Part shown: positions 3,736-11,274 of the stretch, piece after piece
Numbering within the stretch: the stretch's first letter is position 1
Layout of the letters: each line of letters opens with the position of its first letter
Virus record (IMG/VR): IMGVR_UViG_2609459863_000015
DNA length: 30,250 bases
Strand: one strand, 5' to 3'
Source of the DNA: a virus
Taxonomy: Duplodnaviria; Heunggongvirae; Uroviricota; Caudoviricetes
Notes under the pieces: generated by a model
What the model was told of the DNA's origin: nothing
Database searches by the model: none
Seen by the model: the letters and a program-made list of their open reading frames with translations, nothing else
Made by a program: the position numbers and the translations under genes

Positions 3736-3951
3736 ATGAAATCCATGGATAAGTTAACAACGGGTGTCGCCTATGGCACCTCAGCAGGTAGTGCCGGTTA
3801 CTGGTTTTTACAGCTGCTCGATAAAGTCACGCCCTCACAGTGGGCAGCAATAGGTGTGCTGGGTAGCCTGGTATTTGGCCTGCTGACGTACCTGACAAAC
3901 CTTTATTTCAAGATTAAAGAAGATAAGCGCAAGGCTGCGAGAGGTGAATAA
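3736..3951 (+). CDS. S: Class II holin / pinholin (phage 21 S21-like) with dual-start motif
   Basis: 71 aa [71 protein letters not shown]. Met1-Lys-Ser-Met4 gives antiholin and holin starts (3736 and 3745). The track ORF begins further upstream at a TTG. Confidence 0.85.
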
Positions 3952-4448
3952 TGCCTCCATCATTACGAAAAGCCGTTGCTGCTGCTATTGGTGGCGGAGC
4001 AATTGCTACAGCATCAGTGTTAATCACTGGCCCAAGTGGTAACGATGGTCTGGAAGGTGTCAGCTACATACCATACAAAGATATTGTTGGTGTATGGACT
4101 GTATGTCACGGGCATACAGGAAAAGACATCATGCTCGGTAAAACGTATACCGAAGCAGAGTGCAAAGCCCTCCTGAATAAAGACCTTGCCACTGTCGCCA
4201 GGCAAATTAACCCGTATATCGAAGTCGATATACCGGAAACAACGCGCGGCGCTCTTTACTCATTCGTTTACAACGTGGGTGCTGGCAATTTCAGAACATC
4301 GACGCTTCTTCGCAAAATAAACCAGGGCGATATCAAAGGCGCATGTGATCAGCTACGTCGCTGGACATATGCTGGCGGTAAGCAATGGAAAGGGCTGATG
4401 ACTCGCCGTGAGATTGAGCGTGAAGTCTGTTTGTGGGGGCAGCAATGA
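3951..4448 (+). CDS. R: SAR (signal-anchor-release) endolysin, lysozyme family
   Basis: 165 aa. N-terminal Gly/Ala-rich weakly hydrophobic segment [20 protein letters not shown] followed by a lysozyme-like domain. Start overlaps the holin stop (TAATG). Confidence 0.85.
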
Positions 4449-4882
4449 GCAGAGTAACTGCGATTATCTTCGCTCTGGTTATCTGCATCATCGTCTGCCT
4501 GTCATGGGCTGTTAATCATTACCGTGATAACGCCATGACCTACAAAGAACAGCGCGACAAAGCCACATCCATCATCGCTGACATGCAGAAGCGTCAACGT
4601 GACGTAGCAGAACTCGATGCCAGATATACAAAGGAACTTGCTGATGCTAACGCGACTATCGAAAGTCTCCGTGATGATGTTTCTGCTGGGCGTAAGCGGC
4701 TGCAAGTCGCCGCCTCCTGTGCAAAGTCAAAGACCGGAGCCAGCAGCATGGGCGATGGAGAAAGCCCAAGACTTACAGCAGATGCTGAACTCAATTATTA
4801 CCGTCTCCGAAGTGGAATCGACAGGATAACCGCGCAGGTTAACTACCTGCAGGAGTACATCAGGACGCAATGTCTGAAATAA
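4445..4882 (+). CDS. Rz: Rz i-spanin (inner-membrane spanin subunit)
   Basis: Start ATG at 4445 overlaps the endolysin stop (ATGA). N-terminal TM segment [16 protein letters not shown] followed by a coiled-coil-like, charged periplasmic domain. The track ORF starts at a GTG at 4433. Confidence 0.8.
4644..4829 (+). CDS. Rz1: Rz1 o-spanin (outer-membrane lipoprotein), embedded in the +1 frame of Rz
   Basis: [36 protein letters not shown]...: signal peptide with lipobox VSGC followed by a Pro-rich mature part, entirely inside Rz. Start chosen at the ATG at 4644 for a proper n-region; AAGGAA lies upstream. Confidence 0.7.
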
Positions 4883-4913: not shown

Positions 4914-4972
4914 AGCCTCGCGATGCGGGGCTTTTTTGCAATAAATGCGTACCGCAACGCATGTTTTTTTTT
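4914..4972 (+). terminator. Tandem Rho-independent terminators downstream of the lysis cassette
   Basis: Imperfect hairpin GCCTCGCG-ATG-CGGGGC followed by TTTTTT (4914..4937), then ATGCGT-ACCGCA-ACGCAT followed by G plus nine T (4945..4972). Confidence 0.55.
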
Positions 4973-5087: not shown

Positions 5088-5609
5088 ATGAATATCGTGC
5101 CACTTAATTACAAAGGTGAAATTGTCAGTTTCAACACTGATGGTTGGATCAACGTCACAGGTGTTGCTGAGAGATTTGGGAAACGCATTGATAACTGGAT
5201 GCGTTTGGCAGAAACGCTTGAATACGTTCGTGCTTTAGACGAAGCGTTGACCGGGAAAGAATCTCAAATTTTACATCCCTCACAATCGAGGTATGTAAAA
5301 ACCAGCAAGGCACGAAAGGACAGGGGTGGTGGTACGTGGCTACATCCAAAACTTTCAGTTGCATTTGCCCGTTGGTGTGATGCTCGTTTTGCTGTGTGGT
5401 GCGACCTGCACATTGATAGTCTGCTTCGCGGTGAACTGACTGAGCAGCAGAAATATGAGCAAGCATGTCGCATTCGCGATGACCGGAAATCAAAAGCCAG
5501 CAATGGGGCAAGAGAGATGGCTCGCTGGCGATGGGATAAGCCGGTTATTGAAGCAAATGTTGAGTACTGGCGCGAGCAACTGCAGTTGACTCTCGATATC
5601 GCGTGCTGA
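5088..5609 (+). CDS. KilA-N domain-like protein (putative DNA-binding, phage-associated); family assignment tentative
   Basis: 173 aa. N-terminal segment ...FNTDGWINVTGVAERFGKRIDNWMRLAETLEYVRAL... resembles the KilA-N / APSES-like fold; basic C-terminal half. Occupies the position that bor holds in lambda. Confidence 0.5.
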   Translation: MNIVPLNYKGEIVSFNTDGWINVTGVAERFGKRIDNWMRLAETLEYVRALDEALTGKESQILHPSQSRYVKTSKARKDRGGGTWLHPKLSVAFARWCDARFAVWCDLHIDSLLRGELTEQQKYEQACRIRDDRKSKASNGAREMARWRWDKPVIEANVEYWREQLQLTLDIAC

Positions 5610-5748
5610 TGGCAAACGCAAAACTGCGTTATCGAAAAAATCAAAGCATTACTAGAACTGAGCAACGGCTATCCATTACAAAGCCCATCTACGGGTGGGC
5701 TTGATAATGGCTTATACCCTGCACGGGATAACTTAACTGATATCCCTT

Positions 5749-5913
5749 TTAACGGATAAAGGCATTCAAGCCTGACACATCATGCGCTGTATCGTCGCCG
5801 TATTCCCGTATTAACAGAGACCGTAGCCCGACGGGGAACTCCTTCTGCGCGAGTGTGCGGGAATAATCAAAAACGATGCACACCGGGGTTACCGGGTACA
5901 CATATTTCATCAT
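5749..5913 (-). CDS. Hypothetical small protein (54 aa), possible third gene of the minus-strand cassette
   Basis: Not in the ORF track. Minus-strand ATGATG at 5913/5910, translation MMKYVYPVTPVCIVFDYSRTLAQKEFPVGLRSLLIREYGDDTAHDVSGLNAFIR*. Starts 45 nt after the DUF1398 stop. Weak RBS, no homology recalled. Confidence 0.2.
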   Translation of the reverse strand: MMKYVYPVTPVCIVFDYSRTLAQKEFPVGLRSLLIREYGDDTAHDVSGLNAFIR

Positions 5914-5958
5914 GCCAGCGAGTCCGGTTCTGGCACGGAAGAAACCGGACGTTATGAT

Positions 5959-6369
5959 TTAGTGCGGAAATATTTGTGTAGTGTTCTGAATGTTCTCAGT
6001 AAAGAGTAATGAATTATCAAAGGTATAGTAATACCTTTTGTTTTCGTGGATATTTGTAATCCATCTGAAAACCCCTGCTGTAGCAAGATTTTTCCTGTAT
6101 TCGTAAAATGATAACTCTCCTGATTTGAATCCTTTTAAGGTGGCTTCTATAAGGCATTTATTTTTTGAAAATCTTACATTTACAACCTTACCCTGTCCTT
6201 TTATTAAAACCGTATTATCGTTTTCAAGAACAAGATGAATATTCTCTGTAGCTAAATAGTAAATGTAATGTGAGACATTGTGACGTTTTAGTTCAGAATA
6301 AAACCAGTGATAGTTTAAATTATTTCGCACTTTATCGAATATTTGTTTAAAAATGGCAACCTGAGCCAT
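5959..6369 (-). CDS. ybcV: DUF1398-family protein (YbcV/YdfO-like), function unknown
   Basis: ORF 5959..6384; the likely start is the internal Met ([58 protein letters not shown]...) with AAGG upstream. Very AT-rich coding sequence. Resembles DLP12 YbcV and Qin YdfO from memory. Confidence 0.65.
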
Positions 6370-6425
6370 TGTAGTACCTTCCATGTGATATGAGGGGCGT
6401 AGTCTGCACGATTATCTAAATTGCT

Positions 6426-6659
6426 TCAATCTGGTCTGATCTGTTTTCTGAGCAATTCAGTAATGTCACTCTTTTCTTTGTTTGCTTCAGGAGAAACTCT
6501 TTTTTCTGAGCACAGTCTCCGGCGGCAGGCTTCAATGACCCAGGCTGAGAAATTCCCGGACCCTTTTTGATCAAGAGCGATGTTAATTTGTTCAATCATT
6601 TGGTTAGGAAAGCGGATGTTGCGGATTGTTGTTCTGCGGGTTCTGTTCTTCGTTGACAT
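6426..6659 (-). CDS. ylcI: Ribbon-helix-helix (Arc/MetJ-like) small DNA-binding protein, YlcI/DUF3950-like
   Basis: 77 aa MSTKNRTRRTTIRNIRFPNQMIEQINIALDQKGSGNFSAWVIEACRRRL...: basic N-terminal beta-strand followed by two helices, as in RHH repressors. First gene of a minus-strand cassette with the DUF1398 gene 56 bp downstream. Confidence 0.6.
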   Translation of the reverse strand: MSTKNRTRRTTIRNIRFPNQMIEQINIALDQKGSGNFSAWVIEACRRRLCSEKRVSPEANKEKSDITELLRKQIRPD

Positions 6660-6829
6660 GAGGTTGTCCCGTATTTAGTGTCGCTGATTTGTATTGTCTG
6701 AAGTTGTTTTTACGTTAAGTTGATGCAGATCAATTAATATGATACCTGCGTCATAATTGATTATTTGACGTGGTTTGATGGCGTAGATGCACGTTGTGAC
6801 ATGCAGATGATAATTATTATCATTTTGCG

Positions 6830-7047
6830 GGTCCTTTCCGGCGATCCGACAGGTTACGGGGCGGCGACCTCGCGGGTTTTCGCTATTTATGAAAATTTTC
6901 CGGTTTAAGGCGTTTCCGTTCTTCTTCGTCATAACTTAATGTTTTTATTTAAAATACCCTCTGAAAAGAAAGGAAGCGACAGGTGCTGAAAGCGAGCTTT
7001 TTGGCCTCTGTCGTTTCCTTTCTCTGTTTTTGTCCGTGGAATGAACA
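6830..7047. other. cos: cos site: cosQ, cosN (12-nt cohesive-end sequence GGGCGGCGACCT at 6859..6870) and cosB with Nu1-binding R elements
   Basis: Sequence ...CGACAGGTTACG|GGGCGGCGACCT|CGCGGGTTTTCGCTATTTATG... matches the joined lambda right and left ends from memory. R-like elements: CGTTTCC at 6911..6917, GGAAGCG (inverted, variant) at 6972..6978, TCGTTTCC at 7011..7018. Confidence 0.85.
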
Positions 7048-7567
7048 ATGGAAGTCAACAAAAAGCAGCTGGCTGACATTTTCGGTGCGAGTATCCGTAC
7101 CATTCAGAACTGGCAGGAACAGGGAATGCCCGTTCTGCGAGGCGGTGGCAAGGGTAATGAGGTGCTTTATGACTCTGCCGCCGTCATAAAATGGTATGCC
7201 GAAAGGGATGCTGAAATTGAGAACGAAAAGCTGCGCCGGGAGGTTGAAGAACTGCGGCAGGCCAGCGAGGCAGATCTCCAGCCAGGAACTATTGAGTACG
7301 AACGCCATCGACTTACGCGTGCGCAGGCCGACGCACAGGAACTGAAGAATGCCAGAGACTCCGCTGAAGTGGTGGAAACCGCATTCTGTACTTTCGTGTT
7401 GTCGCGGATCGCAGGTGAAATTGCCAGTATTCTCGACGGGCTCCCCCTGTCGGTGCAGCGGCGTTTTCCGGAACTGGAAAACCGACATGTTGATTTCCTG
7501 AAACGGGATATTATCAAAGCCATGAACAAAGCAGCCGCGCTGGATGAACTGATACCGGGGTTGCTGA

Positions 7568-7593
<26 letters not shown>
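7048..7593 (+). CDS. Nu1: Terminase small subunit Nu1
   Basis: 181 aa MEVNKKQLADIFGASIRTIQNWQEQGMPVLRGGGKGNEVLYDSAAVIKWYAERDAE...; matches lambda gpNu1 from memory. Starts 189 nt after cosN, as in lambda. Confidence 0.92.

Positions 7594-11274
<3,681 letters not shown>

What the first reader, a model, noticed from the sequence alone, without database searches (positions are those of the whole stretch)
5749..6860. AT-rich minus-strand cassette of uncharacterised genes (RHH/DUF3950-like, DUF1398-like, possible small ORF) between the lysis module and cos
Two or three tightly spaced minus-strand genes (6426..6659 RHH-like, 5959..6369 DUF1398-like, optional 54-aa ORF 5749..5913) sit in a clearly AT-rich island flanked by the GC-richer lysis and packaging genes, which is the classic signature of a moron. 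The order (small RHH DNA-binding protein first, then a protein of about 136 aa with a 56 bp gap) resembles toxin-antitoxin or repressor-effector pairs. As far as I know neither family has an assigned function, although homologues (ybcV/ylcI) recur at this position in lambdoid prophages. This is the most plausible place in the window for an undescribed accessory function (superinfection exclusion, anti-defence or host modulation), but that is speculation from context only.
Basis: partly seen in the sequence, partly recalled or inferred. Interest (0 to 1): 0.6.

Follow-up and report, generated by a model that had tools for sequence, protein, structure and literature searches.

The report
Known lambda ynfO-ydfO accessory gene pair
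These are the long-known but still uncharacterised ylcI/ynfO and ybcV/ydfO genes that sit just before cos in phage lambda and in most E. coli genomes: real and conserved, but ordinary, and probably not a toxin-antitoxin pair.

Summary
6426-6659(-) is a YlcI/YnfO (DUF3950) gene. 5959-6369(-) is a DUF1398 gene, with 31% GC against about 50-54% in the flanks and a 56-bp gap between the two genes. Both are under purifying selection.

The optional 54-aa ORF (5749-5913) is not a gene. It lies on a widely conserved non-coding segment that holds the bor promoter in lambda.

The window is a lambda-like prophage identical at this locus to E. coli 55989/O104:H4. The pair is the counterpart of K-12 Qin ynfO-ydfO and DLP12 ylcI/ybcV, and of lambda's own lambdap78 plus an ORF left unannotated in the lambda records. 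A YdfO structure exists (2HH8).

In 267 non-redundant contexts, YlcI is the constant element, next to either a lambda-type cos or an HNH-terminase module. DUF1398 is optional cargo. It follows only the 77-aa YlcI form directly, or sits behind an opposed ybcW as in lambda. 162 contexts of the named tail types have YlcI alone. Distant DUF1398 genes are chromosomal orphans.

My reading is an Arc-like DNA-binding regulator plus a non-essential accessory gene. The evidence does not support a toxin-antitoxin pair or a virion part. The biochemical function remains unknown.

The parts
6426..6659 (-). ylcI/ynfO-type gene (77 aa, DUF3950). It has a basic N-terminal arm, a putative Arc-like ribbon-helix-helix core (residues ~10-50) and a 28-aa variable tail (type T2).
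   Evidence: Pfam PF13132 at 5.3e-21; NCBIfam YlcI_YnfO_N; PGAP CDS in identical DNA. Core pN/pS is 0.09. The tail is hypervariable across the family.
5959..6369 (-). DUF1398 gene (136 aa), of the ydfO/ybcV/lambdap78 family, 31% GC. The start at 6369 is preceded by the SD sequence GGAAGG (6382-6377). The longer 141-aa ORF from 6384 is probably over-extended.
   Evidence: Pfam PF07166 at 3.3e-43. E = 2.9e-67 to the solved YdfO structure 2HH8, aligned from the second ATG. dN/dS is 0.2-0.3. GC; sequence read.
6370..6425 (-). 56-bp spacer between ylcI and DUF1398. No terminator-like hairpin and no consensus promoter, so co-transcription is likely.
   Evidence: The gap is 56-59 bp in 79 of 80 IMG/VR loci, so it is not kept in frame.
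6660..6858 (-). Conserved non-coding leader and presumed promoter region between cosN and ylcI. It holds cosQ (GGGTCCT, 6829-6835; the cosQ identity is from my memory of the lambda literature) and a perfect 8+1+8 palindrome ATGATAAT-T-ATTATCAT (6807-6823). The 85-aa ORF and the lambda 37-aa ORF drawn here are probably not genes.
   Evidence: Sequence read. Palindrome (I6). The region is conserved in 58 variants with no codon periodicity (14/15/12). It is specific to the lambda-cos context and absent from the HNH context.
6859..6870 (+). cosN, the 12-nt cohesive end GGGCGGCGACCT, and the right-hand boundary of the cassette.
   Evidence: Sequence read. Lambda records end at query position 1259, which is window 6858.
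5922..5950 (-). Small conserved hairpin directly after the DUF1398 stop codon. It has no U-tract.
   Evidence: -13.4 kcal/mol, z = -1.8. It is kept in contexts that lack DUF1398, and mEp460 carries one compensatory variant.
5783..5890 (.). It is homologous to the lambda region that carries the bor promoter.
   Evidence: 422 phage records match it. HK629 promoter annotation. Alignment and indels. No coding signature.
5673..5710 (.). Strong hairpin between the KilA-N gene and the leftward cassette. It looks like a bidirectional terminator and is the likely 3' end of the leftward unit.
   Evidence: Inverted repeat I2. -22.7 and -24.6 kcal/mol, z = -3.3 and -4.2 on the two strands. Conserved in phage 2851 and mEp460.

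Best explanation
The locus is the 'right-end accessory slot' of lambdoid phages in its Qin-type form (ynfO-ydfO).

The constant element is ylcI/ynfO. It encodes a small, very strongly constrained protein with a basic arm and an Arc/Mnt-like ribbon-helix-helix core. This protein most likely binds DNA as a dimer and acts as a transcriptional regulator.

The gene is read leftward from beside cos, antisense to the late operon, so it would not be read from the rightward late transcript. Expression from its own promoter in the prophage state is inferred.

DUF1398 is an optional AT-rich cargo gene dropped in immediately downstream. Here it is most likely co-transcribed with ylcI, given the 56-bp gap, its own Shine-Dalgarno sequence and the absence of a terminator between the genes. 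It encodes a soluble 136-aa alpha+beta protein with the YdfO fold. This is a non-essential accessory (lysogenic-conversion or host-modulating) protein, not a virion component and probably not a toxin.

Shown: gene identity, selection, composition, architecture and distribution.
Inferred: DNA binding by YlcI, co-transcription, prophage-state expression, and any physiological role.
For: Identity: family hits; 100% identical DNA in E. coli 55989/O104:H4 with the same two CDSs; the same genes at the same place in lambda, HK629 and O276; YdfO structure 2HH8 at E = 2.9e-67.

YlcI as the constant element: in 267 non-redundant contexts the N-terminal ~50 codons are kept while both flanks change. The upstream side is either lambda cosQ/cosN or an HNH endonuclease gene 41 bp away. 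Downstream there are seven tail types. Core pN/pS is 0.09 with pS of 0.43.

DUF1398 as optional cargo: it is directly downstream in 71 of 72 contexts with the 77-aa YlcI form and in 0 of 146 contexts with tails T1 and T3-T6. Of 76 loci anchored on the same nu1, 37 have DUF1398 (all with YlcI), 22 have YlcI only and 17 have neither. GC is 31% and dN/dS is 0.2-0.3.

Non-essential and expressed outside lytic growth (literature): CRISPRi knock-down of lambdap78 leaves plating unchanged (PMC10695390). ybcV and ybcW mRNA fall about 10-fold in a pdhR mutant (PMC7660256). ydfO is induced about 116-fold by [C2mim]Cl (PMC4077768).
Against: - No sigma-70 consensus promoter was found on the minus strand.
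- The two kinds of upstream region share no conserved 7-mer, so there is no common upstream operator to support simple autoregulation.
- No direct expression data exist for this prophage.
- The DUF1398 model failed (pLDDT 50, TM 0.38 to 2HH8), so nothing could be learnt from its fold.
- DUF1398 never appears without YlcI in phage contexts. This fits a dependency as well as simple geometry.
Confidence: 0.6

Rival explanations
1. Type II toxin-antitoxin-like or abortive-infection pair. YlcI is an RHH antitoxin whose C-terminal tail neutralises a DUF1398 toxin and represses the operon.
For: - The gene order (small putative RHH first, then a ~136-aa protein, 56-bp gap) fits type II modules.
- The RHH-like core is conserved while the tail is variable, as in many antitoxins.
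- The 77-aa tail form is linked to DUF1398 in 71 of 72 contexts.
- The dependency is asymmetric: phage DUF1398 is always with YlcI (37 of 37), while YlcI is often alone.
Against: - In lambda and DLP12 the genes are about 650 bp apart with the opposed ybcW between them, and a PdhR site lies between the divergent ybcV and ybcW.
- The lambda-type tail occurs both with and without DUF1398, so the tail tracks the recombination joint rather than the partner.
- Orphan DUF1398 genes (ycgX; Klebsiella, Kluyvera, Salmonella) have no YlcI within 5 kb.
- Neither protein gives a significant PADLOC match, and DUF1398 matches no Pfam family other than DUF1398.
- The gap varies between 56 and 59 bp.
- An ASKA ybcV over-expression clone is viable (PMC2853380), and YdfO was produced in amounts sufficient for an NMR structure (2HH8). 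This is weak evidence, because ordinary E. coli hosts carry ylcI/ynfO.
Confidence: 0.1
2. A prophage-encoded anti-phage defence, superinfection exclusion or anti-defence function carried by DUF1398, with or without YlcI.
For: - It sits in a mosaic accessory slot that also holds bor and KilA-N genes.
- It has foreign composition.
- It is dispensable for lytic growth.
- There are two diverged DUF1398 alleles (100% and 76% identity) behind the same YlcI form.
Against: - No significant PADLOC match.
- dN/dS of 0.2-0.3 shows ordinary purifying selection, not an arms-race pattern.
- No enzymatic or sensor domain is recognisable.
- The reported K-12 links concern metabolism or stress (PdhR, ionic liquid, glycogen).
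- The one mention found in a phage-resistance study lists ydfO loss among the changes in a resistant mutant, without assigning it a role.
Confidence: 0.15
3. YlcI is a cis- or trans-acting accessory of DNA packaging or cos function, because it always lies at the start of the packaging module.
For: It is adjacent to the packaging module in every context seen, whether lambda cosQ/cosN-nu1 or HNH-terS-terL. One paper also lists it in capsid-forming PICI satellites that carry their own packaging genes (PMC13612085).
Against: - It is transcribed opposite to the late operon.
- 17 of 76 loci with a nu1 98-100% identical to the window's lack it.
- 933W-like phages and mEp460 lack it.
- The two upstream contexts share no sequence.
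Confidence: 0.05
4. DUF1398 is a virion or envelope protein, as database labels say ('head protein', 'putative envelope protein').
For: PHROG 413 is labelled 'head protein'. RefSeq lambda and several other records carry 'head protein' or 'putative envelope protein'.
Against: - It is antisense to the late operon.
- It is found in only 43 of 50,697 phage records and is missing from half of the phages with the same nu1.
- It is non-essential by CRISPRi.
- It was solved as a soluble protein (2HH8). Reading the sequence shows no signal peptide or membrane segment.
- Orphan chromosomal paralogues exist.
Confidence: 0.02

Closest known systems
E. coli K-12 Qin prophage ynfO-ydfO
   Same: Same two families, order, strand relation to nohA/nu1 and 57-bp gap. 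YnfO is 95% identical to the window's YlcI, including the 77-aa tail (L012, L013). YdfO is the solved structure 2HH8.
   Different: The DUF1398 allele is only about 76% identical at the protein level. The window's prophage looks complete (lysis, cos, head and tail genes), whereas Qin is a cryptic remnant (that is general knowledge, not tested here).
Phage lambda right end (bor - lambdap78 - lambdap79/ybcW - unannotated ylcI-like ORF - cos) and the DLP12 ybcV-ybcW-ylcI region
   Same: Same families at the same place, with the same cosQ/cosN-proximal leader. DUF1398 is 76-78% identical and the YlcI core 93% identical.
   Different: Lambda has ybcW inserted in the opposite orientation between the two genes, a 64-aa YlcI with a different tail, and bor instead of the KilA-N gene.
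P22 Arc / Mnt repressors (ribbon-helix-helix)
   Same: Small phage proteins with the N-x-R-[FW]-P strand motif, a Gly turn and a second helix, all in the same register. The Arc residues that contact bases (N11, R13; this is from my memory of the Arc-operator structure 1PAR) align with the invariant N14 and R16 of YlcI.
   Different: There is no significant sequence or fold match. YlcI has an extra basic N-terminal arm and a variable tail. No operator or regulated target has been identified.
Lambdoid morons such as bor and lom
   Same: Dispensable, compositionally foreign, present in only some close relatives, and located between late-gene modules. K-12 homologues show expression under host control.
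   Different: bor has a mapped promoter and a known product, a serum-resistance lipoprotein. No phenotype or promoter is established for this cassette.

Membership tests
Pfam DUF1398 (PF07166) / YdfO-like | Score above the gathering threshold over the whole model | tested here: met
   147 bits against a cut-off of 22, model positions 1-119 of 119.
Pfam DUF1398 (PF07166) / YdfO-like | Clear similarity to the solved family member YdfO | tested here: met
   2HH8 at E = 2.9e-67, residues 1-135 aligned. The profile search finds only 2HH8.
DUF3950 / NCBIfam YlcI_YnfO_N | Score above the curated cut-offs | tested here: met
   PF13132 at 74.7 bits against 25. NF041551 at 35.7 bits against 30.
Ribbon-helix-helix (Arc/MetJ) DNA-binding superfamily | Sequence or profile match to a recognised RHH family | tested here: inconclusive
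   No Pfam RHH family at E <= 10 in 22 members, and no PDB sequence hit. hhalign against Arc gives P = 0.024, and against an Arc-family profile P = 0.0068, in a consistent register.
Ribbon-helix-helix (Arc/MetJ) DNA-binding superfamily | Strand-helix-helix fold | tested here: inconclusive
Ribbon-helix-helix (Arc/MetJ) DNA-binding superfamily | Dimerisation and sequence-specific DNA binding | not testable with these tools
   Needs a multimer prediction or EMSA/ChIP. No shared upstream motif was found between the two contexts.
Type II toxin-antitoxin system | The two genes form a conserved bicistronic unit wherever they occur | tested here: not met
   They are adjacent in the 77-aa form (71 of 72 contexts). 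In lambda and DLP12 they are split by the opposed ybcW.
Type II toxin-antitoxin system | Strict co-occurrence of the partners | tested here: not met
   YlcI is alone in 162 non-redundant contexts of the named tail types (146 with tails T1 and T3-T6, 16 with the lambda tail). DUF1398 orphans occur in chromosomes. Phage-type DUF1398 is, however, always accompanied by YlcI (37 of 37).
Type II toxin-antitoxin system | Toxin belongs to a known toxin fold or family, or is toxic when expressed alone | tested here: inconclusive
   DUF1398 matches no Pfam family other than DUF1398 and has no significant PADLOC match. Toxicity is not testable here. The literature shows viable over-expression, but in hosts that carry ylcI/ynfO.
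Moron (accessory gene unit of lambdoid phages) | [quoted passage not shown] | tested here: met
   Of 76 loci with a nu1 98-100% identical to the window's, 37 have DUF1398, 22 have YlcI only and 17 have neither.
Moron (accessory gene unit of lambdoid phages) | Nucleotide composition unlike the neighbouring genes | tested here: met
   DUF1398 has 31.1% GC against 50-54% in the flanks. ylcI at 43.6% differs only mildly.
Moron (accessory gene unit of lambdoid phages) | Own promoter and terminator, and expression from the prophage | tested here: inconclusive
   No consensus promoter on the minus strand. There is a strong hairpin at 5673-5710. Expression is known only for the K-12 homologues, from the literature.
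Known anti-phage defence systems (PADLOC-DB v2) | Match to a defence-protein model | tested here: not met
   The only hit is a chance-level Csx23 match (E = 0.025) for DUF1398. YlcI has none.
Virion 'head protein' (label of PHROG 413) | Encoded in the late operon and needed for virion production | tested here: not met
   It lies on the strand opposite to the late genes. Only 43 phage records carry it. Lambda lambdap78 is non-essential (PMC10695390).

The most novel reading that the evidence does not exclude
YlcI and DUF1398 form a functional two-protein module. In this reading the tail of the 77-aa YlcI form binds DUF1398, and YlcI acts as its antidote or regulator. That would make a toxin-antitoxin-like or abortive-infection system hidden in phage lambda and in most E. 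coli genomes. It would explain why phage-borne DUF1398 is never seen without YlcI while YlcI is often alone.
Probability: 0.1. Interest if true: 0.6.

Novelty: already known. Interest (0 to 1): 0.22.

Why it matters
Little turns on this finding as it stands. The genes are annotated, one has a solved structure, and they are in lambda and K-12.

The residual value is that these are among the last lambda-borne genes without a function. They are carried by more than half of complete E. coli genomes, including O104:H4.

The survey narrows the question. YlcI is an extremely constrained, probably DNA-binding protein that travels with the start of the packaging module. DUF1398 is optional cargo. Assigning a target to YlcI or a phenotype to DUF1398 would close a small but old gap in lambda biology. 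It would also correct the misleading 'head protein' and 'envelope protein' labels.

Tried and rejected
1. Structure route for DUF1398. The AF2 model built on a shallow alignment was poor (pLDDT 50.5). It matched 2HH8 only through sequence (TM 0.38, rmsd 11 Å), so all other fold hits were ignored. Both prediction jobs were then spent, and the 2HH8 coordinates cannot be submitted to the fold search.

2. Remote homology for DUF1398. Neither the profile search against the PDB nor the scan of 1.84 billion representatives (189 hits, mostly fragments) produced a link to any characterised family. An internal duplication is only hinted at (hhalign of the two halves, P = 0.013).

4. Apparent YlcI-DUF1398 fusion proteins (P0010, P0014). 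I rejected these as evidence. In P0014 the ylcI TGA stop is read as W. The two ORFs are out of frame in the window, and the gap varies between 56 and 59 bp.

5. Search for a YlcI operator. The lambda-type and HNH-type upstream regions share no conserved k-mer. The 17-bp palindrome at 6807-6823 is specific to the lambda-cos context.

6. ORF54 and ORF85 as genes. Both were rejected on codon-position and indel tests.

7. RNA-element reading of the conserved segment. There is no Rfam hit. The fold is unexceptional (z = -1.8 and -0.06) and covariation is minimal.

8. The first attempt to scan genome contigs with an 18-sequence alignment failed because no block was conserved enough. It worked with 8 sequences.

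9. Two lambda papers (PMC4424060, PMC3718152) are not held. Wang et al. 2010 does not mention these genes.
Full report
**What is there.** The window is a lambda-like prophage. Reading rightward it holds a porin gene, holin and lysozyme (3951-4448), Rz (4433-4882) and a KilA-N gene (5088-5609). The minus-strand cassette follows, then cosN at 6859, nu1 (7048-7593), the large terminase subunit (7568-9493) and the head and tail genes. The 1451 bp around the finding are 100% identical to E. coli 55989, E24377A and the O104:H4 outbreak strains. In those records PGAP annotates exactly two CDSs in the interval, a 'DUF1398 domain-containing protein' and a 'YlcI/YnfO family protein'.

**The two genes are real.** The 77-aa product of 6426-6659(-) hits Pfam DUF3950 (5.3e-21) and NCBIfam YlcI_YnfO_N. 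The 136-aa product of 5959-6369(-) hits DUF1398 (3.3e-43, full model). It aligns end to end with YdfO, whose NMR structure is PDB 2HH8 (E = 2.9e-67).
- The start at 6369 has the SD sequence GGAAGG seven bases upstream and matches the YdfO N-terminus. The 141-aa version is probably over-extended.
- DUF1398 alleles give dN/dS of 0.2-0.3.
- Across 63 distinct DNA variants of the first 49 YlcI codons, pN/pS is 0.09 with pS of 0.43. 879 of 1175 differences fall at third codon positions. YlcI is therefore an unusually constrained protein.
- The AT-rich island is real but is essentially the DUF1398 gene: 31.1% GC, against 43.6% for ylcI and 50-54% for the flanks.

**The optional ORFs are not genes.** ORF 5749-5913 has no family hit in four libraries.
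- Its start lies in a stretch that differs by insertions between phages.
- 33 of 44 variants carry indels inside the conserved core.
- Among ungapped variants the variable columns split 4/5/5 over codon positions.
- The underlying ~110 bp are a widely shared non-coding segment found in 422 phage records. In lambda-type phages this segment contains the annotated bor promoter.
- The 85-aa ORF 6675-6932 upstream of ylcI spans cosN and likewise shows no codon periodicity (14/15/12).

**It is a known locus.** Lambda itself carries the same genes in the same place. These are lambdap78 (DUF1398, labelled 'putative envelope protein' or 'head protein'), lambdap79/ybcW on the other strand, and then a 64-aa YlcI-type ORF that the lambda records shown (NC_001416, OR974322) leave unannotated.
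- K-12 has ybcV-ybcW-ylcI in DLP12 and ynfO-ydfO in Qin. The Qin arrangement (adjacent genes, 57-bp gap, 77-aa YnfO) is the one seen here.
- A DUF1398 match covering at least 80% of the gene is present in 3011 of 5426 complete E. coli genomes. The exact allele (>= 99% identity) is the best match in 1063 records.

**Architecture across genomes.** I collected loci anchored on DUF1398 (species-representative genomes), on five YlcI variants (IMG/VR) and on nu1.
- The close DUF1398 homologues whose loci extend far enough (>= 70% identity) all lie at the lysis-cos junction, most with YlcI beside them. One locus (L038) has ybcW but no YlcI match. Distant homologues (34-53% identity: ycgX, Citrobacter, Klebsiella, Kluyvera, Raoultella, Salmonella diarizonae) are single genes in unrelated chromosomal settings, with no YlcI or nu1 within 5 kb.
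- In 267 non-redundant YlcI contexts the first ~50 codons are constant while the C-terminal tail falls into about seven types.
- Only the 77-aa type (this window) is followed directly by DUF1398, in 71 of 72 contexts, with gaps of 56-59 bp and two DUF1398 alleles at 100% or 76% identity.
- The lambda tail type occurs both with ybcW plus DUF1398 (14 contexts, plus 3 in which only ybcW is detected) and without either (16 contexts).
- The other five types (146 contexts) never have DUF1398. They run straight into the conserved non-coding segment and Rz.
- The upstream side is either the lambda cosN/cosQ leader or, with no sequence similarity, an HNH endonuclease gene 41 bp away, followed by terS and terL.
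- Among 76 loci with a nu1 98-100% identical to the window's, 37 have YlcI and DUF1398, 22 have YlcI only, 17 have neither and none has DUF1398 alone.

Together these results show that ylcI is a self-contained unit that stays at the start of the packaging module. DUF1398 is optional cargo in the slot behind it. The variable YlcI tail is best explained by recombination joints falling in the 3' end of ylcI.

**What the proteins are.** YlcI has a very basic N-terminal arm, then the motif I-R-N-I-R-F-P, a helix, a conserved Gly and a second helix.
- hhalign puts this in register with Arc (F-N-L-R-W-P ... G), at P = 0.024 against the single sequence and 0.0068 against an Arc-family profile.
- The invariant N14 and R16 of YlcI then fall on Arc N11 and R13. 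From my knowledge of the 1PAR complex, those are the residues that contact bases.
- I therefore treat 'Arc-like RHH DNA-binding protein' as the most likely reading, not as shown.

For DUF1398 the model failed and no remote homology appeared. It is a soluble alpha+beta protein with a solved structure, with no visible signal peptide or membrane segment and no known activity.

**Function.** Direct evidence comes only from the literature on the K-12 and lambda homologues.
- lambdap78 is dispensable for plating (PMC10695390).
- ybcV and ybcW have a PdhR site between them, and their mRNA drops about 10-fold in a pdhR mutant (PMC7660256).
- ydfO is induced about 116-fold by an ionic liquid in exponential phase. 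The same paper cites a report that YdfO over-expression raises oxidative-stress resistance (PMC4077768).
- An ASKA ybcV clone is viable and lowers glycogen (PMC2853380).

With the antisense orientation, these results fit an accessory gene expressed under host control in the prophage state.
- The toxin-antitoxin reading is weakened by the split arrangement in lambda and DLP12, by the independent occurrences and by the lack of any toxin signature. It is not excluded, because phage-borne DUF1398 always has YlcI nearby and the over-expression hosts carry ylcI/ynfO.
- A defence role has no positive evidence (no significant PADLOC match, ordinary purifying selection).
- A packaging role for YlcI is unlikely, because 22% of phages with the same nu1 lack it.
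- The 'head protein' and 'envelope protein' labels are not supported.

**Verdict.** The interpretation as a moron-like accessory cassette is reasonable, but the pair-system idea is not supported. The locus is already known and very common. Its molecular function remains open. The most useful next steps are multimer prediction, a fold search with 2HH8, ChIP or EMSA for YlcI, and a toxicity test in a prophage-free host.

Noticed in passing
window 5783-5890 (with flanks 5749-5950): A ~110-bp non-coding segment is conserved in 422 phage records, whether or not bor, DUF1398, YlcI or KilA-N are present. In lambda it holds the bor promoter. In the window the -35 and -10 hexamers are degraded. The late-sense strand can form a long imperfect hairpin (-31 kcal/mol), but z is only -1.8 and there is almost no covariation. 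It may be a module-boundary sequence used in recombination.
   Followed up: partly
window 5673-5710: A strong hairpin lies between the KilA-N gene and the leftward cassette, with z = -3.3 and -4.2 on the two strands. It is conserved in phage 2851 and mEp460 and looks like a bidirectional terminator.
   Followed up: partly
window 6807-6823: A perfect 8+1+8 palindrome ATGATAAT-T-ATTATCAT lies 5 bp left of cosQ (GGGTCCT, 6829-6835). It overlaps a promoter-like site on the + strand (GTGACA-16-TATCAT). It is conserved in all lambda-cos contexts and absent from HNH-type contexts. Its role is unknown; it could be a cos-associated element or a promoter.
   Followed up: partly
L016-L037, L049-L052 (e.g. 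L021 = CP136411.1, 'Arcanobacterium hippocoleae plasmid unnamed1', 3566 bp): Many 'genomes' of unrelated organisms (Kitasatospora, Brevibacillus, Flavobacterium, Pedobacter, Cohnella and others) contain the lambda right end, several as ~3.5-kb contigs. The eight checked include two deposited as plasmids. Seven of them are 99.7-99.8% identical to the lambda-type phage O276 over a fixed 3447-3452-bp stretch, about lambda 45,042-48,488; the eighth (L020) matches at 100% in a rotated piece. This looks like sequencing control DNA. It probably also explains the many error-laden 180-200-aa 'DUF1398' proteins on ~3.5-kb contigs in the protein database.
   Followed up: partly
lambda NC_001416.1 48139-48303 (homologue of window 6495-6659): The YlcI-type ORF of lambda has no annotated feature in the lambda records listed (NC_001416, OR974322). 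lambdap78 carries the unsupported labels 'head protein' or 'putative envelope protein', which propagate through PHROG 413.
   Followed up: partly
proteins P0010 and P0014: These are apparent DUF3950+DUF1398 fusion proteins in metagenome gene calls. In P0014 the ylcI TGA stop is translated as W (an alternative-code call), so it is not a real fusion.
   Followed up: yes
window 4945-4962 and 5088-5609: A clean intrinsic terminator (hairpin plus T9) sits just after Rz and before the KilA-N gene. The KilA-N protein has a weak partial hit to the PADLOC candidate system PDC-S22 (1.2e-05) and to PHROG regulator families. Related phages carry bor or an Ant-type gene in this position instead.
   Followed up: no
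L001 7969-9893 versus window 7568-9493: PGAP flags the large terminase gene of E. coli 55989 as frameshifted, whereas the window shows an uninterrupted 641-aa ORF from a GTG start. I did not check whether the sequences differ or whether the flag is an annotation artefact.
   Followed up: no
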